DNA of 35,687 nucleotides from a virus (Duplodnaviria > Heunggongvirae > Uroviricota > Caudoviricetes). Below are positions 25,182-35,687 of the stretch, piece by piece. The notes beneath the pieces are model-generated. The model saw nothing but the letters and a program-made list of their open reading frames with translations. It ran no database searches and was not told the origin of the DNA. Location: the IMG/VR virus record IMGVR_UViG_2690315992_000010, one strand, 5' to 3'. Both the position numbers and the translations under genes were made by a program. The first letter of the stretch is position 1; each line of letters opens with the position of its first letter.

Positions 25182-27086
25182 TTAGAACGATGTTACCCAG
25201 CTACGGCCTCTATTTGGGCGTCTGGCGATGTTTTTACGTTGTGGTCGTGTGATTGGCTTATTTTCTTCGATTTGCTCGTCAGATTGCGATTTAGGAGCTT
25301 CTACGGATTCTTCTGGTTCACGGTTCAAACTATCTTTGATGGCTTCGAGTTTTTCCCATGACATTTTATTGAGTACATGGCGATAACTAGCCACCGCATA
25401 GGTTAGGCAGTCCAAGCCCTCGTTGCGTTGCTGACCAACTTTTACCCAACGTGTGGTATTACCCTGCCGTTTCAACTGTTCAGATAGCAATTGCTCGCAG
25501 TAGTCATCAGGAACGTCACCAATCTGGAAGACCGTATGAGGATCGCTGTCTCTCAAGTTCCGGTTAATCATTTCACGGATCATCGTCTTAAGGTTGTTTA
25601 CGCCCAGAATTTTAAGGGTAAAACCGCCCGTTCTTGTGTCTTTTACCGGAAGGATTGGAGCATCAACATTACTTGCGCCCTTAATGGCGCATAGATTTTG
25701 CCACCTAGTGCAAAAGCGGTAGATCACTTGCGTAGCTCGTCCGTTTGATGAGTCCACGAAAGCGGATAGCATCGGGATTCGTTGACCGGATCGGGTATAG
25801 AATTTTGCTTTCAGGAAGTTGTAAAGCTGGTCATATGCTGGTGATTCGTGGCGTTCGCAGTTCACATCATAGAATGATCGGTGATCAACTACGCATATCC
25901 CTTTACGAGAGATACCCAGCAAGGTAGATTCCAGACGGTCTTTTTGCTGGTCAACTCCACCTACCAGAGCCAAAACATCATCAGGAATATTATCTAAGCT
26001 AATGTCAGTTTTCAGCGTTTCCAGTTCGTCGGCTGTGCGGTCTTCGTTAAGATCATCGAAGGTTTCACCGAGCACCACATTATAGAACGTTGCCAGCGAC
26101 ATATTCGCGTAGCTATCAGCAAAGTCCACCACACACGCACGGATAGAACTAAACGGAGACATAAGGCGGTTAGCATGAAAACCGATTACTTCCGCATTTG
26201 GTTCGGTGGCGACCCATTCTCCCTGAGCAACAGCACGGAGGCGATCTGGTTCTGACCAATCAGTTTCACATGACGGGCAACGGTAAACGGCTGTGTCTGG
26301 ATTCGGCAGTGATTTACCATTGATTACATGCCAATCAAAGAATACTCTACTCCATTCCATTACGTGTTTGTGTCCGCAATGCTGGCAAACGACGTGGTAT
26401 TTTCTTTTATCCGAGAGTTCCCATTGTTGGTTTATCGCCCCATCCCGCGAAGTTGGAGTAGAAGCAATTACGATCCTTGCATCATCACCGAAAGTGGTTG
26501 CGCGTTGTTCCGCTAGCTGGATCGGGTTCCCTTCGTCTGACTCATCAGCCGCATCAACTTCATCAAGAATAATCAAAGGTAGTGTTTTACCGCGAAGATG
26601 TGATGGACTATTCAACGACATGAAATACATGAATGATCCGTTACGAAGCTGAATAATCGATGAGTTGTTAACGGCATTGCGATCTGACTTGTCGGTGATC
26701 ATCGCCTTTAATTCTGGGGTTGCCTCTAATACTGGCTTCACCTTACCCGCGATCCAGCTATTCAACTCGCGGACGTTTGCTTGCAAAACACCTATATTAG
26801 TGGGGTTGCTGGCGATCCTATGAAAGATAATACCGTTTAGCACAAGAGTTTTACCCAACTGCGCCGAGCACTTTAGCACAATTTTTCGCCTATCTTCGGT
26901 GATCGCGTCCATCATCCCACGTTGGAAAGGATGCAATTTAATTAGCGATCCGGCTTTAACACCATCGGTTGCAACTACATTAGCCTCTACCCATTCGCTA
27001 GGTTTCATGGCTTTAGGTGGGCGAATTGCAGCAGAGATATTTCTGAGAATCTTTTTTAATTTTGCCTTATTAGAAATCAGTTTCAT
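25182..27086 (-). CDS. terminase large subunit (GpA family)
   Basis: 634 aa; Walker A-like KCSAQLGKT, IASTPT motif, Cys-rich zinc-finger-like segment (CQHCGH...CPSC), size similar to lambda gpA; GAGGGTAA RBS before ATG 27086. Confidence 0.8.
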   Translation of the reverse strand: MKLISNKAKLKKILRNISAAIRPPKAMKPSEWVEANVVATDGVKAGSLIKLHPFQRGMMDAITEDRRKIVLKCSAQLGKTLVLNGIIFHRIASNPTNIGVLQANVRELNSWIAGKVKPVLEATPELKAMITDKSDRNAVNNSSIIQLRNGSFMYFMSLNSPSHLRGKTLPLIILDEVDAADESDEGNPIQLAEQRATTFGDDARIVIASTPTSRDGAINQQWELSDKRKYHVVCQHCGHKHVMEWSRVFFDWHVINGKSLPNPDTAVYRCPSCETDWSEPDRLRAVAQGEWVATEPNAEVIGFHANRLMSPFSSIRACVVDFADSYANMSLATFYNVVLGETFDDLNEDRTADELETLKTDISLDNIPDDVLALVGGVDQQKDRLESTLLGISRKGICVVDHRSFYDVNCERHESPAYDQLYNFLKAKFYTRSGQRIPMLSAFVDSSNGRATQVIYRFCTRWQNLCAIKGASNVDAPILPVKDTRTGGFTLKILGVNNLKTMIREMINRNLRDSDPHTVFQIGDVPDDYCEQLLSEQLKRQGNTTRWVKVGQQRNEGLDCLTYAVASYRHVLNKMSWEKLEAIKDSLNREPEESVEAPKSQSDEQIEENKPITRPQRKNIARRPNRGRSWVTSF

Positions 27087-27129
27087 GTAATTACCCTCAT
27101 TACGAAATATGAAGGTATTTATTAAATTG

Positions 27130-27158
27130 TTGATATTTTGATAAATACGGGTATTAAG
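27130..27158 (+). promoter_or_regulatory. candidate sigma70 promoter for rightward gene 27175 (divergent from terminase)
   Basis: TTGATA - 16 bp - TATTAA upstream of AAGGGGGGG RBS. Confidence 0.3.
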
Positions 27159-27174
27159 ATTTAAGGGGGGGTGT

Positions 27175-27780
27175 ATGCTAATTAATCAGCAACAAAGAGA
27201 TGCATTAGAATTAGCCTTTTCTTGTTGTACCGATCATGAATATCGTTTGCCAGTTAAGCACCATCACAAGAAGACTGATTACACAACATCTGGCTTTAGT
27301 CGTGAGGAAGCTAAACAGATTTTAATCGAGTTGTATCGCGATCATGGGTATACCGATATTCATAACTTCTTTAAGAAGCATCGTACATCACAGACAGAGT
27401 TTAATAGAGTTCGTGAATGGTTTGATTTTGACATTAAGCGATTCTATCGAGTAGATGACGGTCCTATCTATCGGTTGCAGTGGACACCGATTAGGGAAGT
27501 GCTTAAACAGAAGAGATTGAATCATGCCATTACACGCTATCGTAATGTGGCTTTTAAGAAAGGCTATGGTGATTCAAGGGAATTGTTTGTAGAACTCGCT
27601 AACGTGCGATATAGCCACTATTACAGGAATCCTAAAGAGTTCTTCGAAGTGCTGCGCAAGGTTGATATTAGTCGGGGTACATATTATTCACGGTTGAAGA
27701 AGTACGGGATTAAGGCAGAGTTCTTTATGTCGGTTGACGATGGAGAACTTTTTCCGATAAAATGTAAGTCCTCTAAATAA
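27175..27780 (+). CDS. helix-turn-helix protein of unknown function (paralogue family member 1)
   Basis: 201 aa; contains FSREEAKQILIELYRD and C-terminal ISRGTYYSRLKKYGI segments that recur in the two small proteins at 27810 and 31471. Confidence 0.5.
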   Translation: MLINQQQRDALELAFSCCTDHEYRLPVKHHHKKTDYTTSGFSREEAKQILIELYRDHGYTDIHNFFKKHRTSQTEFNRVREWFDFDIKRFYRVDDGPIYRLQWTPIREVLKQKRLNHAITRYRNVAFKKGYGDSRELFVELANVRYSHYYRNPKEFFEVLRKVDISRGTYYSRLKKYGIKAEFFMSVDDGELFPIKCKSSK

Positions 27781-27809
27781 AGGTGAACATTCACTTTAAT
27801 TTGGAGAAA

Positions 27810-28043
27810 ATGACTATGACTACTAAAGCTACTCGCGGTCGCCCTGCCCGTTTTAACGCTGAACAGATGGCTGATATTGCCTACGCTTATTATACAGCGG
27901 ATCGTGGTAAGGAAGCGAAAGAACAGATTCTTAGTGAACATGGGATCTCAATCGCCCAATTCTATAAGAATATGAAGAAGTTGGACATTAAATTCTATGT
28001 TCAGATCGGTGATGGTCAGATCGTAGAAGCAACAGGTTTTTGA
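27810..28043 (+). CDS. small helix-turn-helix DNA-binding protein (paralogue 2)
   Basis: 77 aa from ATG 27810 (GGAG RBS); RGRPARFNAEQMADIAYAYY...ISIAQFYKNMKKLDI. Track start 27783 is GTG. Confidence 0.5.
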   Translation: MTMTTKATRGRPARFNAEQMADIAYAYYTADRGKEAKEQILSEHGISIAQFYKNMKKLDIKFYVQIGDGQIVEATGF

Positions 28044-28058
28044 GTTTTGATTCTCTTT

Positions 28059-28082
28059 GCCACTCTTCGGAGTGGCTTTTTT
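28059..28082 (+). terminator. intrinsic terminator
   Basis: GCCACTC-ttcg-GAGTGGC followed by TTTTTTG. Confidence 0.7.
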
Positions 28083-28203
28083 GTATGTAAAACAATCGGC
28101 GCAAAACTGCGCTCATTTCTAAGTTGAGTCCAAATCTGGACTGATCTATAGATGCATCCAAATCTGGAGGGATGCGCTTAAAGTTCAGCGCATCTACAGA
28201 TAC

Positions 28204-28228
28204 AAAAAAGCCCCTGAAATTCAGGGGC
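28204..28228 (-). terminator. intrinsic (bidirectional) terminator after Rha operon
   Basis: AAAAAA-GCCCCTGAA-at-TTCAGGGGC-AAAAATT; its right half is the TTCAGGGGCAAAAAT motif that forms the iteron array at 30.7-30.9 kb. Confidence 0.65.
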
Positions 28229-28236
28229 AAAAATTA

Positions 28237-29070
28237 TTACAGTCCGAAGACTTCCAGAGAGCCAGCATTCTGACGAATCAGCAAAGCAGTGTTATTAATG
28301 ATTGCTCGTGAGTTATTCGGCTGTGGCAATTTCAAAGTTGCGGCCTTTTCTTCTTCAAGCAATCCGAGTTTTACGAGATGCGGGATAGCATCAGCAGTGA
28401 ACTCGATCTGACCGTGTGCCGACATACGAGCGAACATATAGCCAGGAGGAAGCAGATCATAGCCTTTAGGCTTACCAGAAGCATCCAGACGACGCTCAAG
28501 AACACCAGCAGCACATAAACCTTTCAGAATCATTTGTACCTTCGTAGAGCCTCGTTTTTCGCCTAATAAGCGGCTAAGACTGTGTGCATCAATAGCTTTA
28601 CGGATATGAAGATCAACTAATTGTTCTTTTTCTTGAATCAGTTGTTCGTTTGCGGCTTCTAATTCCATTGCCTCACGAATCCAATCGAGCTTAGTCATGT
28701 TTGCGTATGGGTTGACTTGCTGAGAACGCAGTTTTTCATTTTCTTCTTTCAGTCGTTTCCATTCCTGAATAACAACCATTCGACGCTTAACATCGTAACC
28801 AGTGACAAGAGTCAGAGTCATTTCTTCGTCTAGTTGATATTCGTTTTGTTCGCGTCCGTATTGGTCAAAATAGATGACGCGAAACTTCGCGTGATCTTCA
28901 TAACCTAGAGCATTCAACATCTTAGTTATATCAACTTTAACTTTGTGGTGTTCTTTTCCGGTAAATTCAGCGATCTGACGAGAAGACATGGTCAGTGGTT
29001 TGGTGTTATCAACAACCAGAGACACGGAAGCAGTTTTAACAGCAGTATTCATAGTAGTAACAGTATTCAT
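28237..29070 (-). CDS. Rha-family phage regulatory protein / antirepressor
   Basis: N-terminal LTMSSRQIAEFTGKEHHKVKVDI matches the Rha-domain signature; ~150-aa C-terminal antirepressor-like domain. Confidence 0.65.
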   Translation of the reverse strand: MNTVTTMNTAVKTASVSLVVDNTKPLTMSSRQIAEFTGKEHHKVKVDITKMLNALGYEDHAKFRVIYFDQYGREQNEYQLDEEMTLTLVTGYDVKRRMVVIQEWKRLKEENEKLRSQQVNPYANMTKLDWIREAMELEAANEQLIQEKEQLVDLHIRKAIDAHSLSRLLGEKRGSTKVQMILKGLCAAGVLERRLDASGKPKGYDLLPPGYMFARMSAHGQIEFTADAIPHLVKLGLLEEEKAATLKLPQPNNSRAIINNTALLIRQNAGSLEVFGL

Positions 29071-29159
29071 AGTAAAAATTCCCCTTAAACGGTTTAGTGA
29101 TTTGGTCCTCCTAGTTCCGGCATCTCAACCGGAACAATTTTATTTATGATAGAAATTTA

Positions 29160-29492
29160 TTACCAATCGATTTCTACTTGGTCTTCTTCATAATAAGGAA
29201 TCGCATATTCATAACGCCAATTTTCGATGATTTCACGTTCTTCATTAGTAAGAAGGTGATTGTTAACTGGAGTCGCATTGTGATTACCAGCTTCGAATTG
29301 CTCGCGAACTTCCAGCATTGCATGAATACCAGTTAAGGTCATCAGATCAAACGGAACATGCATACTACGGGAGATAGTTTCACGGGATACACCCCAATCA
29401 TTTTCTACATGGCTAGGGGTTACAGAAACGGTTTTGCCGGAGATTTTAACAGTCCAGTCATACAGGGATTTAGTGATGGTAAATTCTTTCAT
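29160..29492 (-). CDS. hypothetical protein
   Basis: 110-aa ORF with AGAGGA RBS, first gene downstream of promoter at 29549-29577. Confidence 0.5.
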   Translation of the reverse strand: MKEFTITKSLYDWTVKISGKTVSVTPSHVENDWGVSRETISRSMHVPFDLMTLTGIHAMLEVREQFEAGNHNATPVNNHLLTNEEREIIENWRYEYAIPYYEEDQVEIDW

Positions 29493-29548
29493 GTTACATC
29501 CTCTTTACAAATCTAGGTCAAATAGGTTCAAAGTTGTCAAGCGCGATA

Positions 29549-29577
29549 ATCATAAAAAAGTCAGAAATTTTTGTCAA
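29549..29577 (-). promoter_or_regulatory. candidate sigma70 promoter (leftward) overlapped by palindromic operator
   Basis: Minus-strand -35 TTGACA (29577-29572), 17-bp spacer, -10 TATGAT (29554-29549). Palindrome TTGTCAA-tacccc-TTGACAA at 29571-29590 overlaps the -35. Confidence 0.4.
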
Positions 29578-29612
29578 TACCCCTTGACAAGACGCCAAAG
29601 GGTTGACCTAAC

Positions 29613-30071
29613 TTACAGCATATCTAAGCCTTCATCGTAACCGTAGAAGCCACCGTGAGAAGAGAAAGCGATTGGTGCGTAGTCTTCGTCTTCCTCATCT
29701 TGTTCTGGGGCTTCCTGAGCGGTTTCTTTACCGTAATTAAACATTGCTTCATCCAGTTCACGAAGAGTCAAGAAGCTACCCAGGTCAATGTCACCGGAAC
29801 GGACTTGAAACGGCAGATCATCACGAACAATAATTGCTGGTAGATTCTGGTACTTTAAGCGTTCTTCATCGGTGAAGACGTTAACAACAATGGTCGGCTT
29901 CTTATTACGGCAAAACGCATACCATGCACTAGAGAAATGGGATTCATCAGAGTTGAAAAGGATGTTATAACCACGTTCACGGAACATCTTCATTAACTTG
30001 TCATTGTGGAAGCTATCAGAATCCAGACCCAGAAGGATAAAAGGAGTAGTGGTAGTCATCTTGTGGTTCAT
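29613..30071 (-). CDS. hypothetical protein with acidic C-terminal tail
   Basis: 152 aa, GAGGA RBS; C-terminus EAPEQDEEDEDYAP; no domain recognised. Confidence 0.5.
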   Translation of the reverse strand: MNHKMTTTTPFILLGLDSDSFHNDKLMKMFRERGYNILFNSDESHFSSAWYAFCRNKKPTIVVNVFTDEERLKYQNLPAIIVRDDLPFQVRSGDIDLGSFLTLRELDEAMFNYGKETAQEAPEQDEEDEDYAPIAFSSHGGFYGYDEGLDML

Positions 30072-30713
30072 AGTGGAAATCCTCTAAAAGAAAGTGAATC
30101 AAACAAATTACACTAGTATTTATAACGAGAATTTTTTATCTATTTGGAAGGGATTGGTATTCAGTCGGGCATAGCCCTCCTTCATAGATTTTGATTAAAT
30201 CATCATCAAAACGAAGAAGTATCTTTAGAATATAAGAATCTTTCTTTCGAAGAAAGAATAATCAGGAAGCAATTTCAGCAACCGCAGGTTGCGATCCCGA
30301 AGGGATAACCAATACCTTTCTAGAAAGTGATTGTTACTCACTTCGTTCGTTTACTAGAATCAGTTATCATCTAGTATTAAAATCCCTTTCTAAGAAAATC
30401 CTTTCAAAAGTGATTCTCGATGCCACGCAGTGGCGTCGCAGACGTTTGAGAGTGAGCGAAGCGAGCGAGCAAACTAGTTAATTCCTTCTAAGACCATCTA
30501 GTATCATCTAGTTTAAATTAGTTGTTACTAGAAGTAATTGGTTAGCGCTACGCGCAGTCGGGCAAAGCCCTCCTAATATCTTTTTGGTTATTTTTGGTTT
30601 TACACATGAGCGTAGCGAATGTGTTATATAATATCTATGCACGCCCGATTCCCCGTTTTTACCCCTCACTAAGTTAATGTTTTATAAAGAGTTTTTCTTA
30701 CCAATCCTTTTCG

Positions 30714-30906
30714 GGGGCAAATTTCAGGGGCAAAAATTAGATTTTAAGGGGCAATTATTGGCATTTCAGGGGCAAAAATGAGGGGCAAAATCACTGTTTC
30801 CCAGAATTTCAGGGGCAAAAATAGTGGGTTTCAGGGGCAAAAATGGGATAGTGGAATCTTGGGTATTTTGGTTCGGGGGCAAAATTCAGAATTTCAGGGG
30901 CAATTC
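30714..30906. repeat. array of ~9 direct GGGGCAA(A/T) iterons (5 copies of full TTTCAGGGGCAAAAAT)
   Basis: Core starts near 30715, 30727, 30749, 30770, 30782, 30811, 30832, 30876, 30897; spacings mostly 12 or 21 bp; non-coding. Confidence 0.6.
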
Positions 30907-30993
30907 CCATCAAATATTTTGATAGAAAATTCTTGTATATTATTTAATCAAAAAATCACCAAAAAGTGGCGTAAGTTAATGATTTAAAAAGAA

Positions 30994-31019
30994 TTGTCAA
31001 AAGGTCTCCGTGCTATAAT
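30994..31019 (+). promoter_or_regulatory. candidate extended -10 promoter (rightward)
   Basis: TTGTCAA at 30994-31000 and TGcTATAAT at 31011-31019. Confidence 0.35.
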
Positions 31020-31099
31020 AGGTTATAAAGGTTGATAATCCTGATCTACCATTTTCAAACAAAAATTTTGATAGTCATTTCTCGCTTAGGTCAAGTGTA

Positions 31100-31128
31100 T
31101 TGACAACTGTCAAGGATTATTTTATACT
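31100..31128 (+). promoter_or_regulatory. candidate strong sigma70 promoter (rightward) with palindromic -35 region
   Basis: TTGACA (31100-31105), 17-bp spacer, TATACT (31123-31128); -35 lies in palindrome TTGACAACTGTCAA. Confidence 0.5.
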
Positions 31129-31263
31129 TTTTCTCACTGGTGGGGGTTGAAATTTTCTAAACAGTCCCCATATAGATGATAAGCAAGAATTTCCACGTTA
31201 TAAATACATGTGTGAAATGATTGTTCACTTCTGAAAATCTCCTGATCCACTGCTAATTCATAC

Positions 31264-31291
31264 AGCACTGGTTAGATATACAGTGCTTTTT
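31264..31291 (+). terminator. intrinsic terminator-like hairpin (possible end of a ~160-nt small RNA)
   Basis: AGCACTG-gttagatata-CAGTGCT followed by TTTT. Confidence 0.4.
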
Positions 31292-31415
31292 CGGTTGAAT
31301 ATTGTACGAATTGATTAATAATTAATCTTCTCTTTAGCAATTCGTGCTCCCACTGATCGGATATACAGTGGTTTTACAGGGTTTTCTGAAAATCATTTTA
31401 TAAATACAAGTGTTC

Positions 31416-31436
31416 AGAGCGAAATGCTCTTTTTTA
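31416..31436 (+). terminator. attenuator hairpin immediately upstream of gene 31471
   Basis: AGAGC-gaaat-GCTCT followed by TTTTTT. Confidence 0.45.
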
Positions 31437-31470
31437 AGAAATTATTAATCCACATGTGAGGAATCGACTG

Positions 31471-31650
31471 ATGGCTAGACCTGTTAAGTTCACTCGTGAA
31501 ATGATTGTTGATATTGCTAAACGCTTTTACAGCGACACTGAGCGAGGCGGGGAAAACTTCTTTAAGAAGGAAGGAATTGATAGAAGCGGATTCTACAAGC
31601 TAATGAAGAAATACGAAATTCAGGTAAAGATTAACGTTCAAGTTTGTTAA
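31471..31650 (+). CDS. small helix-turn-helix DNA-binding protein (paralogue 3)
   Basis: 59 aa from ATG 31471 (GAGGA RBS); ARPVKFTREMIVDIAKRFY...IDRSGFYKLMKKYEI parallels the 27810 protein. Track start 31456 is GTG. Confidence 0.5.
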   Translation: MARPVKFTREMIVDIAKRFYSDTERGGENFFKKEGIDRSGFYKLMKKYEIQVKINVQVC

Positions 31651-31765
31651 TCCACTTTCACTGAGAATTATATGATGGCTTTAAAAAAAGAAAAAGCCTC
31701 CCTTGTTGCAGCAAAGGAGGCTTGAAATGAACAATTAAAACTAACTTTCTACAGGAGTATTTATA

Positions 31766-32710
31766 ATGTTATTTTCCGCTAACTTTTTCACTAACGAAGT
31801 AACCAACGCTAAAGCAGTTATCAAATTTGGCACCGAAGCAAACAAGAAGATTCAGCCGAAAGTTGTTGTTCATGTTTCCTTTGCGCAGCAGAAATCCGCT
31901 TTCGCTGGCTTTAAAGCACATCGTGAAGCACTGATCGCGGCTGGCTTTGGTGTTGACGGTAAACTGCCTAACGGCATTCGTAAAGCAATCGACCGCGTTA
32001 AACCTGCTAAAGACGTTGCAGTAGACCACATCGTTACTTTCACCGTTAAGAACTCTTCTGAACTGTTCCACCTAGTGATTGCTGGTGATACTGCTATCGT
32101 TTCCGCTCCTAACATGGATTTTCAGGATACCGCTGATTGCAACATTACCTTTGGTCGTCGTAAAGAAGTTACCGGAAAAGCTAAACTGAACTTCACCAAA
32201 TCCGGCAATCCTTACTTTGCTGTATTCTTTAACAGCCACGCTACTGAGAAAGAAGTAGTAGAACTGGTTGCATATGAAGGTGAAGAAAAAGCACGTATTG
32301 AATCTTGCGACGCTTTCGTAGAACTGGAAGCACAGGTTAATGCTGTTTCTCCGGTTGCTGTTGAAGATCGTTTCTCTGCACTGGAAGCACAGATCGCAGA
32401 ACTGAAAGCTGCGCTGGAAGAAAAAGACCAGATCATCGAAGCACAGAAAGCTGAGATTGAAGAACTGAAAGCTAAAGAAGTTGCTCCGGTGGCAGTAGTT
32501 GAAAATGCGGCTGATGAGGCCGCAAATGATGAAGTAGAAGTGAAAATCGATGTGATGCGTGATCCGATGGCTGCACTGCAATTGCTTCGTTCTTTTAAGG
32601 GCAAATCTCATTTTTCTAGTGATGCGGTAGACGAGGAAGAAGAACAGAAACGCAATGTTGCAATGCTTCATGATGAAATGTACGGTACTAACTTTTCTTA
32701 CTGCCAATAA
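31766..32710 (+). CDS. hypothetical protein, apparently highly expressed (N-terminal globular part, C-terminal Ala/Glu-rich coiled-coil-like region)
   Basis: 314 aa; consensus AGGAG RBS 8 nt before ATG; codon usage strongly skewed to CTG/CGT/GGT/GAA/AAA/GCT; bracketed by terminators. No family recognised. Confidence 0.6.
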   Translation: MLFSANFFTNEVTNAKAVIKFGTEANKKIQPKVVVHVSFAQQKSAFAGFKAHREALIAAGFGVDGKLPNGIRKAIDRVKPAKDVAVDHIVTFTVKNSSELFHLVIAGDTAIVSAPNMDFQDTADCNITFGRRKEVTGKAKLNFTKSGNPYFAVFFNSHATEKEVVELVAYEGEEKARIESCDAFVELEAQVNAVSPVAVEDRFSALEAQIAELKAALEEKDQIIEAQKAEIEELKAKEVAPVAVVENAADEAANDEVEVKIDVMRDPMAALQLLRSFKGKSHFSSDAVDEEEEQKRNVAMLHDEMYGTNFSYCQ

Positions 32711-32714
32711 AAAA

Positions 32715-32732
32715 GGGACTCCGAAGAGTCCC
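32715..32732. terminator. bidirectional intrinsic terminator
   Basis: AAAAAA-GGGACTC-cgaa-GAGTCCC-TAGTAAGTTT; stronger T-tract on minus strand. Confidence 0.55.
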
Positions 32733-32806
32733 TAGTAAGTTTAGGTTAGGTTTGCACAACAAAGATGAACATAATGCTACATTATTCTTTAAAGCCAGAA
32801 AAATAA

Positions 32807-32824
32807 CCGCCTCTTTCGAGGCGG
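32807..32824 (-). terminator. intrinsic terminator (minus strand)
   Basis: CCGCCT-ctttcg-AGGCGG with minus-strand T-tract (TTATTTTTCT). Confidence 0.5.
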
Positions 32825-32981
32825 GAGGATTAATACTCAATCTATACTTGTTATGTTTTTATGTTGTATAGATCCTGACTATGAAAACACTGTACTGGAG
32901 TGTGTTTTATGGCTTTTAATCGGGAATCCTCAAAGAAGATCCCCTGTTAATAACCATAAGGAGAAAAGGCAGATTACACTA

Positions 32982-33155
32982 TTATTTAGTATCCTTTTTA
33001 CAGCAACTAAAAAGAATAAACAAAAAGAAGCATACCCAGCCGTAAGGCGTACCGATTAGAAATTTGAAAAACACCACCAGCGATATAAAAATCAATTTAA
33101 TGCCAGCGACGATAGTCAAAAACAGCAGAGTAGCAAAGTAGACAAAAAGATCCAT
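32982..33155 (-). CDS. small hydrophobic membrane protein, ~57 aa (two predicted TM segments)
   Basis: ATG ~33155 with AGAGGA RBS; MDLFVYFATLLFLTIVAGIKLIFISLVVFFKFLIGTPYGWVCFFLFILF...; not in ORF track. Confidence 0.25.
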   Translation of the reverse strand: MDLFVYFATLLFLTIVAGIKLIFISLVVFFKFLIGTPYGWVCFFLFILFSCCKKDTK

Positions 33156-33208
33156 AGATAATCCTCTTTGAAAACGACCATCATCTATAGTTCAATTCAT
33201 CGATTTAA

Positions 33209-33310
33209 TTAATTATACTTGAAAGCGTTACACAAAGTAGAAATGCCAATATGTGCCAGTGAATATACGATAGTTAATCCTACAGCCAGATAAATCAAAA
33301 ATTCAACCAT
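33209..33310 (-). CDS. small hydrophobic peptide, ~33 aa
   Basis: ATG ~33310 with GAGGA RBS; MVEFLIYLAVGLTIVYSLAHIGISTLCNAFKYN; not in ORF track. Confidence 0.2.
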   Translation of the reverse strand: MVEFLIYLAVGLTIVYSLAHIGISTLCNAFKYN

Positions 33311-33408
33311 AGGTAAATCCTCAAATAAGAAAAAGGTTAGCGGGGGATGTTCTCCCCCGTAGGCGTTGACCCATTCAACACCCTTCACATATATTTAGTA
33401 TCTAATTT

Positions 33409-33966
33409 TTACGACACATCAAATTCATCATCTTCTTCTGGTTCTTGTTCTTCCGGTTCATCCATTAATGGTAATTCTTCTTCCTCGTCTTCTCCCAAAT
33501 CTGCATTTTCGAACAAGTCCCCTACTTCATTTAAACGACGCTCGATGATCTCCCTTAGCTTATTCTTCAATGTTTTCTGGTCAGTTGCAGATTCGAGAAT
33601 TTCTAAAGCGTCGATTGTGGCGATCTGCAAAATAGTCTGTTTCACTTTCCCGCAGTATTCCGCTAGTTGCTGTTCTACATAACCGACAGGAATCAGGAGA
33701 TTCATTTTTTCCTGGTTCTCTCGTTCGGCTGCATCTGCCATTGCTCTTTCTCTGCGGAGACGTTCTTGATCAATCGCTTCTTTGATTGAAGTTTGTTTAA
33801 GTGGGTTAATTACGTTCTTTAGCACCCAATCGCAACCTTCCTTTGCTGGAACACGCCTCTTATTGGTATTGTAAGGTAGTCCCCTTTCTAACCATCGCTT
33901 ACCGCCACCATTCAATGTATAACCATATAAACGGGAAATTTCTGTAAGGGTTAATTCTTCTTTCAT
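33409..33966 (-). CDS. terminase small subunit (Nu1-like) candidate
   Basis: N-terminal HTH segment LTLTEISRLYGYTLNGGGKRWLERGLPY resembles the Nu1 DNA-binding domain pattern; central coiled-coil; strongly acidic C-terminus; GGAGGA RBS; palindromes and GC-rich site just upstream. Confidence 0.5.
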   Translation of the reverse strand: MKEELTLTEISRLYGYTLNGGGKRWLERGLPYNTNKRRVPAKEGCDWVLKNVINPLKQTSIKEAIDQERLRRERAMADAAERENQEKMNLLIPVGYVEQQLAEYCGKVKQTILQIATIDALEILESATDQKTLKNKLREIIERRLNEVGDLFENADLGEDEEEELPLMDEPEEQEPEEDDEFDVS

Positions 33967-33984
33967 TGGTTATCCTCCATTAAA

Positions 33985-34043
33985 TTTGCGTAATTTTATT
34001 TATTGGTTTTACGCAAAATCTAAGCGCCTAAAACGCGTTTTAG
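33985..34043. promoter_or_regulatory. palindromic protein-binding sites upstream of small terminase gene (cosB-like candidates)
   Basis: Inverted repeat TTTGCGTAA-N15-TTACGCAAA (33985-34017) and perfect 16-bp palindrome CTAAAACGCGTTTTAG (34028-34043). Confidence 0.4.
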
Positions 34044-34090
34044 CGAAGGGAAAGATCCAGTAATGGTAAGGGTTAGGAAGGGGGTTAATA

Positions 34091-34109
34091 GTCGCGTAGC
34101 GACCGCGCC
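34091..34109. other. candidate cos nicking region (GC-rich island with dyad symmetry)
   Basis: GTCGCGTAGCGACCGCGCC in AT-rich context ~125-145 bp upstream of the Nu1-like start, the position expected for cosN in lambda-like genomes. Inference only. Confidence 0.25.
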
Positions 34110-34324
34110 ATGAGTGAAGTGATCACGTTTTAAAATCTCACACGCACATCAAATACCGGGGTGCCGAAAACTCCCTTTATTTCATCCGTGGAACAGTACC
34201 TTTTTAATTTGTCAAGCATTAATTTCTTAATTTAATTACTAAATCTCATCCCAATAATTGAAAAAATATCAAAAATCAATAAAGTAAGCATCTAAAAGTC
34301 AGTCCATACCAAAAGAGGTATAAA

Positions 34325-35104
34325 ATGAAAAACATTATCGCTGCTATCGTGCTTTCTGCTACTGCTTTCGGTGCTGATGCTGCGTCCTTTGATTGCACTA
34401 AGGCTACTACCAAATCAGAGAAGTTTATTTGTGCTAACGAGTCTATCTCCGCACTGGATTCGAAACTTCATGAAGTATATGTTAAAGCTGTTAAGATTGA
34501 TCCATCTCTGAAACAAGAGCAACGCAACTGGAATAAAACTGTTCGTGATACAATGATCAATATCGGGCAGATTCAGCCACTGGAGGCTGTATACAACGCT
34601 CAAATCCAAAACTTGATGAATGTATTATCTAAAGAAGAAACCGCGTCAGAGAGCGATTCAGAGACTTCTGCGAAGGTTGAAGAAGAACAACCGAAACAGG
34701 AAGAAGTAAAGAAACTGAATGTTACCGCGATTTACGCATGTACTACAAAATTTACATGGAAAGTTATCGATGGTGAGGAAACAGAAGCTGTAAAAGATAA
34801 ACTCTACGGAAACAAAACTTTTGATAATAACGGCGGTAAACTTAAGATCAAAATGGTAGACGATGTTCCGGTATCTTTTGTGTATTCCGACAAGTATGAT
34901 GTTTATAAATCAAGTCTCAAGCCATCTAAAGAGAATCCAAACGCAATGGAAGGTAAATCCAAACAGGATACTATTGGACGTGTTAACACTTATAACATCT
35001 GGGTAAGCAAAAAAGGTGACATGCGTCTTGAAGTAATTGAACCAAAATTTGATTCTGAATATAAACACACTCAATTTGCATGTGACATGGTAGACGCAGA
35101 GTAA
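34325..35104 (+). CDS. secreted protein with DUF1311 / LprI-like N-terminal domain
   Basis: Signal peptide MKNIIAAIVLSATAFGADA; SFDCTKATTKSEKFICANESISALDSKLHEVY matches the conserved Cys-containing DUF1311 signature; AGAGG RBS. Confidence 0.55.
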   Translation: MKNIIAAIVLSATAFGADAASFDCTKATTKSEKFICANESISALDSKLHEVYVKAVKIDPSLKQEQRNWNKTVRDTMINIGQIQPLEAVYNAQIQNLMNVLSKEETASESDSETSAKVEEEQPKQEEVKKLNVTAIYACTTKFTWKVIDGEETEAVKDKLYGNKTFDNNGGKLKIKMVDDVPVSFVYSDKYDVYKSSLKPSKENPNAMEGKSKQDTIGRVNTYNIWVSKKGDMRLEVIEPKFDSEYKHTQFACDMVDAE

Positions 35105-35336
35105 GAGGTGAAATGATGCAATTCAATAGCATGAAGATTACTCAAAAATGGTGGGATGCGATGAAAGCTAACCACCAGAACGATATTAATTAAGTAACAT
35201 TTTAGATATACAGCACCCAGCTAACAGATCACCTTTTATGGATTTCATTATAACCCCTTTGATCTGGAAACTATGTTAATTAGTTGATTTCTAAGCCTTG
35301 TCCTTGTGATGGGGCTTTTTATTGCAAAATTTTTAG

Positions 35337-35687
35337 TTATTTTGGGTTGACTACATTCGGGTTGCCAATTCGCCAGGCTAACTCTTGCTGAGTGATTTCT
35401 GACTGTAAAAAAGCATTTAACAGCAATACTTTAGAGGCGACGCTCAAAGGTACTTCAATAAAGTGATCATGACTATTTAATGGCGAAGGTAACGGGATAA
35501 GCTCGTTATCTTCAAAATAAAAATCAAATGCGGTCAGTAAAGCATCTTTTGCCGCTTCCATCGCTTCAGCGACAGTTTCGCCCTGCGTCAACGCTTCAGG
35601 GATATCCACAAAAGAAACCATATAACCGCCTTCCGGCGCGGGTGTAAGAGTGACGGGATAACGCATAATTTCGACTGTCTCTCGCAT
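35337..35687 (-). CDS. hicB: HicB-family antitoxin, N-terminal domain only; C-terminal DNA-binding domain apparently truncated at junction with phage-like DNA
   Basis: MRYPVTLTPAPEGGYMVSFVDIPEALTQGETVAEAMEAAKDALLTAF... recognised as HicB N-terminal domain (recalled as near-identical to E. coli HicB; not verified). ORF ends ...ITQQELAWRIGNPNVVNPK* inside what should be the first helix of the HTH. Base composition and codon usage look more host-like here. Confidence 0.55.
   Translation of the reverse strand: MRETVEIMRYPVTLTPAPEGGYMVSFVDIPEALTQGETVAEAMEAAKDALLTAFDFYFEDNELIPLPSPLNSHDHFIEVPLSVASKVLLLNAFLQSEITQQELAWRIGNPNVVNPK

What the first reader, a model, noticed from the sequence alone, without database searches (positions are those of the whole stretch)
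30714..30906. Iteron array of about nine GGGGCAA(A/T) direct repeats
Five copies of TTTCAGGGGCAAAAAT plus four shorter GGGGCAA copies within ~190 bp, spaced mostly 12 or 21 bp (about one or two helical turns). The same motif forms the right half of the terminator palindrome at 28210-28228. Phased iterons like this are typical binding arrays for an origin initiator, partition protein or transcription factor, and the array is flanked on both sides by paralogous small HTH genes.
Basis: seen in the sequence. Interest (0 to 1): 0.65.

Follow-up and report, generated by a model that had tools for sequence, protein, structure and literature searches.

The report
Repeat array matched to its own binding protein
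The nine GGGGCAA repeats are real and appear to be the docking sites of an uncharacterised phage protein encoded 860 bp downstream (not of the small helix-turn-helix genes first suspected); the pair is probably the replication origin and initiator, or else an early-gene switch, of an E. coli prophage family with no recognisable replication genes.

Summary
The array is real: nine same-strand GGGGCAA cores lie in 30709-30907, against about 3 expected in the whole window. They sit on one face of the helix (period 10.7 bp, R=0.85). The window is a ~35-kb E. coli prophage with a serine integrase and no recognisable replication or CI gene. The array lies in a 1.4-kb non-coding region between divergent early operons.

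Related prophages carry different repeat arrays at the same position, and the array type always matches the allele of one gene, 31766-32710 (p314). This held in 30 of 30 distinct E. coli-group loci (four types). The motif is kept, or changed at two core positions, in step with protein divergence in six loci from other assemblies (labelled Salmonella, Providencia, Proteus, or unlabelled sequencing runs). The ~850 bp between array and gene recombine freely. The terminator copy is not coupled to array type.

p314 has a basic N-domain with no family or fold match, a coiled coil and an acidic tail. I rate cognate binding at about 0.9. Function is inferred: origin plus initiator about 0.4-0.45, early-transcription or immunity regulator about 0.35. 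It is a new protein family in a known kind of system.

The parts
30709..30907 (+). Array of nine direct repeats, consensus TTTCAGGGGCAAAAAT. Units start at 30709, 30722, 30743, 30764, 30777, 30807, 30829, 30871 and 30892.
   Evidence: Helical phasing 10.7 bp, R=0.85. The spacing pattern 13, 21, 21, 13, 30, 22 is kept in most relatives that hold all nine copies; the last two spacings vary (40-43, then 13-14 or 21-22), and some relatives have lost one or two whole units.
31766..32710 (+). p314, the inferred array-binding protein. It has a basic N-domain (residues 1-165, pI 9.6), a coiled coil (about 199-237) and an acidic C-terminal part (pI 4.3).
   Evidence: Its allele matches the array type in 30/30 distinct loci and in six loci from other assemblies. 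Charge. AF2 model. No family or fold match.
30909..30948 (.). 88% A+T segment 3 bp right of the last repeat. It ties for the least stable 40-bp duplex of the whole window and is a candidate unwinding element or UP-like element.
   Evidence: It is also adjacent to the array in L132, L133 and L135, but not in the relatives from other assemblies.
30657..30668 (-). Degenerate inverted copy of the repeat (TTTTACCCCTCA; TTGCCCC in several relatives), about 45 bp left of the array.
   Evidence: (I10).
31011..31019 (+). Extended -10 promoter-like site TGcTATAAT, pointing towards HTH2 and p314.
   Evidence: Read from the sequence. It is conserved in relatives that have right module A.
31100..31128 (+). 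Sigma-70-like promoter TTGACA-17-TATACT. Its -35 lies in the palindrome TTGACAACTGTCAA.
   Evidence: 11 of 12 matches.
31130..31455 (+). Leader upstream of HTH2, with three terminator-like hairpins at about 31264-31292, 31349-31375 and 31416-31436.
31471..31650 (+). HTH2, a small HTH protein and first gene of the operon that ends with p314. Its alleles assort independently of the array type.
28208..28234 (-). Intrinsic terminator of the Rha gene. Its + strand reads ATTCAGGGGCAAAAAT, a 15/16 match to the repeat unit. It is probably not part of the system.
   Evidence: It is also present in L132, which has the GTGTAGG array and p331.

Best explanation
The nine repeats are the cognate multi-site DNA target of the phage protein p314 (31766-32710). 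Its basic N-terminal domain would read one repeat. The coiled coil would join the bound molecules, which lie on one face of the helix, into one bent nucleoprotein complex. This binding relation is supported indirectly by co-variation; I rate it about 0.9. I infer that the complex most likely serves as the phage's replication origin, with p314 acting like a plasmid Rep or phage initiator. In that model, assembly on the iterons would destabilise neighbouring A+T-rich DNA, and the acidic or conserved C-terminal part would recruit host replication proteins. p314 might also feed back on its own promoters about 110-220 bp downstream. I rate the origin role at about 0.4-0.45. None of these steps has been shown experimentally.
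For: 1. At the same position, related prophages carry different arrays. The array type matches the p314-position gene in 30/30 distinct loci: GGGGCAA with p314 in 19, GTGTAGG with p331 in 8, CGGGGA with p339 in 2, and TTGTACA with p371 in 1.
2. The ~850 bp between array and gene recombine. GGGGCAA arrays occur with two promoter modules and four HTH2 alleles, and three of those four HTH2 alleles also occur with other array types.
3. The motif tracks protein divergence in other assemblies. At 75% N-domain identity (Salmonella) the 16-mer is the same. At 51% the core AGGGGCAAAAAT is kept. At 36% the unit is TTTCACGGACAAAAAT, with two core changes. p331 and its 66%-identical Providencia homologue both go with TAGTGTAGGTTT. 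A Proteus protein goes with CTAGGGAT.
4. Nine of ten arrays are phased at 10.2-11.2 bp, with p<=0.008.
5. The N-domains are basic and the rest of each protein is acidic.
6. Origin-like context. No replication gene is recognisable in the prophage. The 21-22-bp lattice resembles plasmid iterons (my knowledge); iterons beside an unwinding element are the plasmid origin layout (PMC4980987). The window's least stable DNA touches the array. One strain carries two prophages with identical p314 proteins and the same nine-copy array layout, which argues against an immunity role. The P1/P2 promoter module is shared between array types.
7. Precedent: the satellite PLE has a serine recombinase, a non-coding region with repeats that serves as its origin, and a single initiator that binds DNA through its N-terminal domain (PMC7145576).
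Confidence: 0.45

Rival explanations
1. The array is a regulatory site. p314 binds the repeats to activate, silence or insulate the divergent early promoters, as a lysis-lysogeny or immunity determinant or as an autoregulator, with no role in replication.
For: The array lies between divergent early operons, about 110 and 200 bp upstream of two promoter-like sites that drive HTH2 and p314. Many specificities occur among near-identical prophages of one host, as expected under selection for hetero-immunity. The architecture is a coiled coil plus acidic tail. The same coiled coil and C-terminus are found fused to a different N-terminus that I read as ORF6N/antirepressor-like (P0129; not scanned against Pfam). 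No CI-type repressor is recognisable elsewhere. The A+T-rich neighbour is not conserved across genera.
Against: The repeats do not overlap any recognisable promoter. The promoter module and its palindromic operator-like site are shared by prophages with different arrays. Two prophages with identical p314 proteins and the same nine-copy array layout coexist in one chromosome. The phage would still lack any candidate origin or initiator.
Confidence: 0.35
2. This is the first reader's implied version: the repeats are bound by the flanking small HTH paralogues (27810-28043, 31471-31650) or by the 201-aa tandem-HTH protein (27175-27780).
For: The genes are paralogous HTH-like modules close to the array. 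One HTH2 allele has a weak HTH_Tnp_1 match (E=0.003).
Against: There is no co-variation. HTH1 is 100% identical in L133, which has a CGGGGA array. HTH2 is 97% and p201 91% identical in L132, which has a GTGTAGG array. GGGGCAA arrays occur with four HTH2 alleles that are 48-100% identical to the window's. p201 is absent from L006 and L133.
Confidence: 0.05
3. The array is a centromere-like partition site or a handcuffing/copy-control site, comparable to parC/ParR or incA.
For: It is a set of direct repeats phased at about 11 or 22 bp, bound by a protein that can oligomerise.
Against: No ParA, ParM or TubZ-type gene is recognisable. All 60-62 matching places in E. coli complete genomes are chromosomal and none is on a plasmid. 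There is no plasmid match.
Confidence: 0.07
4. The array is the packaging recognition site (like cosB or pac) for the small terminase subunit.
For: The terminase is of the lambda gpA type and a TerS-like gene is present. The lambda cosB site is a set of repeated Nu1-binding sites (my knowledge).
Against: TerS is 84-94% identical across array types, and TerL is only 58% identical among prophages that share the same array. The array lies 2.5 kb from the TerS gene and 3.6 kb from the TerL gene.
Confidence: 0.03
5. The repeats act at the RNA level, or are a coding or chance feature.
For: All repeats are on the same strand, and an ORF (30778-30987) spans them.
Against: The 10.7-bp phasing points to duplex DNA. 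Relatives carry frame-breaking indels in the ORF. There is no Rfam match. The enrichment is far above chance.
Confidence: 0.03

Closest known systems
Iteron-type theta replicons of plasmids (RK2 oriV/TrfA, F RepE, R6K pi, P1 oriR/RepA)
   Same: Both have several direct repeats on one helical face, here on a 21-22-bp lattice, and a cognate element-encoded binding protein whose specificity changes with the repeats. A+T-rich DNA lies next to the repeats in this window, and the protein gene is nearby and possibly autoregulated. The plasmid origin layout of DnaA boxes, iterons and an unwinding element is taken from PMC4980987; the plasmid repeat spacing is my own knowledge.
   Different: p314 has no Rep_3 or winged-helix signature and no fold match. 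There is no DnaA-box cluster. The element is an integrated prophage. The repeats are about 860 bp from the gene, with another gene and a terminator-rich leader in between. Replication is untested.
Vibrio cholerae PLE satellite: non-coding region ori plus RepA (PMC7145576)
   Same: Both are mobile elements with a large serine recombinase and a long non-coding region that holds several repeat families. In each, a single protein has a DNA-binding N-terminal domain and an uncharacterised C-terminal domain, and no helicase or primase is encoded.
   Different: PLE RepA is a RepA_N protein and its iterons are semi-palindromic. p314 gives no RepA_N match, and its repeats are simple direct units. PLE depends on a helper phage, whereas this element has a full set of virion genes.
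Lambda O protein and ori-lambda iterons in lambdoid phages (my knowledge)
   Same: Both are origin-initiator pairs that are swapped as a unit among mosaic relatives. In both, the N-terminal domain sets the specificity and the C-terminal part contacts the replication machinery.
   Different: The lambda iterons lie inside the O gene and are inverted repeats. A P-type helicase loader follows O. p314 gives no Phage_rep_O match.
Centromere or operator arrays of short direct repeats (R1 parC/ParR, pSM19035 omega heptads; P2 Cox and 186 Apl boxes) (my knowledge)
   Same: Both are arrays of 7-16 or more short direct repeats at about 10-11-bp phasing, bound cooperatively into a bent filament. The group III relatives, with exact 11-bp spacing, resemble these most closely.
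   Different: Those binding proteins are small RHH or wHTH proteins. The partition systems have an NTPase partner, and Cox and Apl sites overlap promoters or attP. None of these applies here.

Membership tests
Iteron plasmid-type origin (Rep + iterons) | Several direct repeats in one orientation, helically phased (about 22 bp) | tested here: met
   Nine copies; spacings 13, 21, 21, 13, 30, 22, 42, 21; period 10.7 bp, R=0.85, p=0.002.
Iteron plasmid-type origin (Rep + iterons) | An element-encoded protein that specifically recognises the repeats | tested here: inconclusive
   Array type co-varies with the p314 allele in 30/30 loci and in six loci from other assemblies. This is indirect; there is no binding assay.
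Iteron plasmid-type origin (Rep + iterons) | The initiator belongs to a known Rep family or fold (Rep_3 winged helices, RepA_N, TrfA, lambda O) | tested here: not met
   No Pfam, NCBIfam or PHROG hit. No PDB sequence or fold match.
Iteron plasmid-type origin (Rep + iterons) | A DNA unwinding element next to the iterons | tested here: inconclusive
   The least stable 40-mer of the window lies 3 bp from the array. This adjacency is not conserved in the Salmonella, Providencia or Proteus relatives.
Iteron plasmid-type origin (Rep + iterons) | DnaA boxes or IHF sites in the origin | tested here: not met
   There is one relaxed DnaA box at 30598 (2 in the window against 4.6 expected) and no IHF consensus in the region.
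Iteron plasmid-type origin (Rep + iterons) | Supports autonomous replication | not testable with these tools
   Needs a replication assay or marker-frequency sequencing.
Partition centromere (parC/parS type) | A partner NTPase gene (ParA/ParM/TubZ) and extrachromosomal maintenance | tested here: not met
   No such gene in the prophage. All matching places in E. coli complete genomes are chromosomal.
cosB/pac terminase recognition site | Specificity coupled to the small terminase subunit and located beside the terminase genes | tested here: not met
   TerS and TerL alleles assort independently of the array type. The array is 2.5-3.6 kb from both genes.
CI/Cro-type immunity region | Operators overlap the early promoters and co-vary with a repressor; phages of the same immunity exclude each other | tested here: inconclusive
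   The array co-varies with p314. However, it does not overlap the promoter-like sites, which are shared between array types. A double lysogen of the same type exists.
Cox/Apl/Xis-type direct-repeat arrays | Bound by a small (about 70-90 aa) winged-HTH protein encoded by the element | tested here: not met
   The small HTH paralogues do not co-vary with the array.

The most novel reading that the evidence does not exclude
p314 and its relatives (p331, p339, p371 and homologues labelled Salmonella, Providencia and Proteus) are a previously undescribed family of sequence-specific DNA-binding proteins. Their beta-rich N-domain matches no known DNA-binding fold and its specificity has been re-set at least seven times. 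Together with their iteron arrays they form a new type of replication initiator and origin. This would let a tailed prophage replicate with a single phage protein and the host replisome.
Probability: 0.35. Interest if true: 0.75.

Novelty: new variant of a known kind. Interest (0 to 1): 0.6.

Why it matters
The finding gives a concrete, cheaply testable protein-DNA pair for a prophage family whose early region is entirely 'hypothetical'. The family is in about 1% of complete E. coli genomes and also occurs in assemblies labelled Shigella, Salmonella, Providencia and Proteus.

If the pair is the origin and initiator, it explains how these phages replicate without any known replication gene, and it adds a new initiator fold. 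If it is a switch or immunity determinant, it defines a repressor- or activator-like system unrelated to CI/Cro.

In either case, the natural series of matched motif and protein variants is a ready-made data set for working out how a new DNA-binding domain reads sequence. Examples are GGGGCAAAAAT changing to CGGACAAAAAT at 36% protein identity, and the unrelated GTGTAGG, CGGGGA, TTGTACA and CTAGGGAT motifs. The series is also a source of orthogonal protein/site pairs.

Tried and rejected
**Homology searches that found nothing**
- Rfam scan of 27000-35687: only sub-threshold chance hits.
- DNA searches of cultured phages and plasmids with the region: no relative.
- tblastn of p152, p201, the p314 N-domain and P0137 against phages or plasmids: no match.
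- Two scans of GTDB species-representative genomes with p152 and TerS profiles: no relative.
- The first homologous-protein search returned only near-identical proteins.
- The 50%-cluster search showed the p314 family is very small, with three full-length clusters.

**Structure and family assignment**
- The AF2 run without an alignment failed (pLDDT 43). With 12 sequences the N-domain reached pLDDT 70-89 over most of residues 1-120 and 131-150.
- A profile of the HTH modules against PDB and Pfam gave nothing significant.

**Motif and site scans**
- A three-copy GGGGCAA pattern scan of viral contigs mostly returned coding tandem repeats with spacings that are multiples of 3. It also returned a few unrelated repeat arrays that lie within ORFs I read as initiator-like; I did not annotate those ORFs.
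- DnaA-box, GATC and IHF scans showed no enrichment at the array.

**Explanations rejected**
- The small HTH paralogues or p201 as the binding protein, the terminator copy as a second site, TerS or packaging, the coding ORF over the array, and an RNA-level repeat. The reasons are given under the rival explanations.

**Literature**
- Searches for this prophage family (ycdX or hicB insertion) found nothing relevant.

Full report
**Observation.**
GGGGCAA occurs 11 times in the 35.7-kb window, against 3.07 +/- 1.83 expected from shuffles. Nine of these, all on the + strand, lie between 30714 and 30903.

The longer unit TTTCAGGGGCAAAAAT is exact four times, at 30722, 30764, 30807 and 30829. A fifth copy at 30892 shares only its first 12 bases, and four further copies are degenerate. 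Start-to-start spacings are 13, 21, 21, 13, 30, 22, 42 and 21. The positions fit a 10.7-bp period (R=0.85, p=0.002 against random placement), so the copies lie on one face of B-DNA.

Across 17 distinct array sequences from relatives, substitutions are rarer in the GGGGCAA cores (4 of 63 columns) than between them (23 of 134; p=0.046). Copy-number changes remove whole units. The 69-codon ORF over the array carries 1-, 8- and 22-bp indels among relatives, so it is not coding.

**Context.**
The window is a chromosomal E. coli prophage of about 35 kb.
- The 2-kb array region (30000-32000) matches 58 of 5426 complete E. coli genomes, always on the chromosome.
- In strain GN4741 the prophage interrupts ycdX. 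In the window and in other strains it interrupts hicB.
- It encodes a large serine recombinase, lysis, tail and head genes, a gpA-type large terminase at 25182-27086 and a TerS-like gene at 33409-33966.
- About 7 kb of early genes have no annotation.
- Pfam, PHROGs, NCBIfam and the RefSeq annotation recognise no replication protein and no CI-type repressor anywhere in the element.

The array lies in a 1.4-kb non-coding region (30072-31470) between two operons. The leftward operon holds a 152-aa protein, a 110-aa protein and Rha. The rightward operon holds HTH2 (31471-31650) and p314 (31766-32710). To the right of the array come, in order:
- an 88% A+T stretch (30909-30948), which ties for the least stable 40-mer of the window;
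- an extended -10 site (31011-31019);
- a TTGACA-17-TATACT promoter (31100-31128), whose -35 lies in a palindrome;
- a leader of about 330 nt with three terminator-like hairpins.

**What recognises the array.**
The decisive evidence is comparative. Some E. coli genomes matched only the sequence just to the right of the array. Fetching them showed the same prophage family with a different array at the same position:
- about eight TAGTGTAGGTTT units in NZ_CP024232.1 (L132);
- at least sixteen CGGGGA cores, many of them 11 bp apart, in NZ_CP168998.1 (L133);
- about twelve TTGTACATCC units plus a CTAATACCGGGGA series in an IMG/VR contig (L135).

I compared every early protein across these loci. 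Only one gene tracks the array type, and it is the one at the p314 position. In 30 distinct loci:
- all 19 GGGGCAA arrays go with p314 (at least 91% identity);
- all 8 GTGTAGG arrays go with a 331-aa protein;
- both CGGGGA arrays go with a 339-aa protein;
- the TTGTACA array goes with a 371-aa protein.

- HTH1 is 100% identical in the CGGGGA prophage.
- HTH2 is 97% identical and the 201-aa protein 91% identical in the GTGTAGG prophage.
- GGGGCAA arrays occur with four HTH2 alleles that are 48-100% identical to the window's.
- The 201-aa gene is absent from two relatives.

TerS, TerL (58% identical among prophages with the same array), Rha and p152 also assort independently.

The match is not simple linkage. 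The ~850 bp between array and gene come in two promoter modules and several HTH2 alleles. These are shared across array types, yet the two flanks always match. The loci are related, so 30/30 overstates the number of independent events. Even so, the recombinant combinations show repeated opportunities for a mismatch.

**Beyond the E. coli group.**
Homologues of p314 found through a 35%-identical representative lie in the same prophage layout in assemblies labelled Salmonella, Providencia and Proteus and in two unlabelled sequencing-run assemblies. Motif divergence follows protein divergence:
- At 75% N-domain identity (Salmonella, L148) the 16-mer is the same, and most of the spacing pattern is the same.
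- At 51% identity (L150, L152) the core AGGGGCAAAAAT is kept and the 5' flank changes.
- At 36% identity (L149) the unit is TTTCACGGACAAAAAT, with two core changes.
- The Providencia homologue of p331 (66% identity) has TAGTGTAGGTTT, the same motif as in E. coli.
- A Proteus protein distantly related to p339 has fifteen CTAGGGAT units, mostly spaced 11 bp apart, or about 20 and 54 bp.

Nine of the ten arrays examined are phased at 10.2-11.2 bp, with p<=0.008.

**The protein.**
All of these proteins share one architecture: a basic N-terminal domain of about 165-190 aa (pI 9.1-9.8 in most), a coiled coil and an acidic C-terminal part.
- The N-domains of the p331, p339, p371 and Proteus proteins are detectably homologous to one another.
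- The p314 group is not linked to them by BLAST.
- No Pfam, NCBIfam, PHROG or PADLOC family matches.
- With a 12-sequence alignment, AF2 gives a beta-rich N-domain with pLDDT 70-89 over most of residues 1-120 and 131-150.
- The coiled coil and C-terminus of one p314 variant also occur fused to a different N-terminus that I read, without a Pfam scan, as ORF6N/antirepressor-like (P0129). This fits a modular layout of DNA-binding head, oligomerisation segment and effector tail.

**The terminator copy.**
The motif in the Rha terminator (28219-28234) is a genuine 15/16 match. The same terminator is present in L132, which has the GTGTAGG array and no p314. It is therefore not coupled to the system, and the resemblance remains unexplained.

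**Mechanism.**
The co-variation supports one conclusion: the array and p314 are a specificity pair. This is indirect evidence, and I rate it at about 0.9. What the complex does has to be inferred.

I favour an origin-initiator pair (about 0.4-0.45), for these reasons:
- The repeats form an iteron-like lattice in a single orientation.
- The phage has no other candidate replication function.
- The window's most meltable DNA abuts the array.
- The promoter module is shared between array types, so the repeats are unlikely to be its operators.
- Strain BS74R-D carries two prophages of the family with identical p314 proteins and the same nine-copy array layout, which is awkward for an immunity determinant.
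- PLE offers a documented precedent: a serine-recombinase element whose origin is a repeat-bearing non-coding region served by one initiator with an N-terminal DNA-binding domain (PMC7145576). The general iteron and unwinding-element logic is reviewed in PMC4980987.

Several points argue against an origin:
- p314 resembles no known initiator.
- No DnaA, IHF or GATC signals are present.
- The A+T-rich neighbour belongs to one promoter module and is not adjacent to the array in the more distant relatives.
- The position between divergent early operons, and the large number of specificities, fit a regulatory or immunity role equally well (about 0.35).

Partition, packaging, RNA-level and coding readings are unlikely. 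The reasons are listed under the rival explanations.

**Verdict.**
The likely partner is p314, which belongs to a small, previously undescribed protein family. This is a known kind of system, a cognate repeat array plus its binding protein, built on a new protein family. The matched series of variants makes binding, replication and regulation assays straightforward to design.

Noticed in passing
window 15982-18366 and 30184-30265: The tail-fibre gene is 78-86% identical at the nucleotide level to the long-tail-fibre distal subunit of RB49-like (Krischvirus) virulent phages. An 82-bp non-coding stretch left of the array is about 77% identical to an intergenic element present 1-4 times per Krischvirus genome, for example upstream of RB49 gene 3. 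A stem changes on both sides between the two (TTGAT..ATCAA against TTGGTT..AACCAA). This suggests DNA exchange between this temperate family and T4-like phages, and possibly a shared regulatory cassette.
   Followed up: partly
window 31011-31455: Two rightward promoter-like sites lie here: an extended -10 site, and TTGACA-17-TATACT with its -35 inside the palindrome TTGACAACTGTCAA. They are followed by a leader of about 330 nt with three terminator-like hairpins, two of them near-duplicates (CACTG-N10-CAGTG-TTTT), before HTH2. This could be an attenuation or antitermination control, or a small RNA of about 150 nt.
   Followed up: no
window 27175-28043 and 31471-31650: The prophage holds four copies of one small HTH-like module. 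Two are single-module genes (HTH1 and HTH2), which are clear paralogues. Two more sit in tandem in the 201-aa protein, at only 19-22% identity. HTH2 exists in at least five alleles that recombine independently of everything around them.
   Followed up: partly
whole window (about 1-35330): This is a complete-looking ~35-kb prophage with a large serine recombinase but no recognisable replication gene or CI-type repressor. The TerS-like gene (33409-33966) lies 6.3 kb from TerL, at the far right end next to the attachment site.
   Followed up: partly
NZ_CP063332.1 (L153, L154): E. coli BS74R-D carries two prophages of this family, one in ycdX and one in hicB. Their HTH2 and p314 proteins are identical and both have nine-copy GGGGCAA arrays, while their other early genes differ. 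This suggests gene conversion, or that two prophages of the same array type are tolerated.
   Followed up: partly
L133 6812-6990 and 8893-9894; L135 6140-6355 and 8364-9455: Some relatives carry a second repeat series (CTAATACCGGGGA...) and a second protein downstream of the first. These second proteins are 333 and 363 aa long, 29% identical to each other, and both end in RPTLRLVA. They may form a second array-protein pair.
   Followed up: no
C-termini of p314-family proteins (L003, L132, L133, P0123, P0127, P0133): Many alleles end in ..KAA, ..LAA, ..RAA or ..YAA. From my own knowledge this resembles the ssrA-like C-terminal signal for ClpXP, so the proteins may be unstable. The window's own allele ends in ..FSYCQ.
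   Followed up: no
window 28208-28234: The Rha terminator carries a 15/16 copy of the array unit, yet the same terminator occurs in a relative that has a different array and protein. The origin of the resemblance is unexplained.
   Followed up: yes
window 30778-30987: A 69-codon ORF across the array is annotated as a hypothetical protein in one fetched RefSeq genome (PEC41). It is an artefact of the repeats.
   Followed up: yes
window 27087-27174: The divergent intergenic region between TerL and the 201-aa gene holds one of only four IHF-consensus matches in the window (27123-27135) and very A+T-rich DNA (27108-27147). It is a possible cos or late-promoter region.
   Followed up: no
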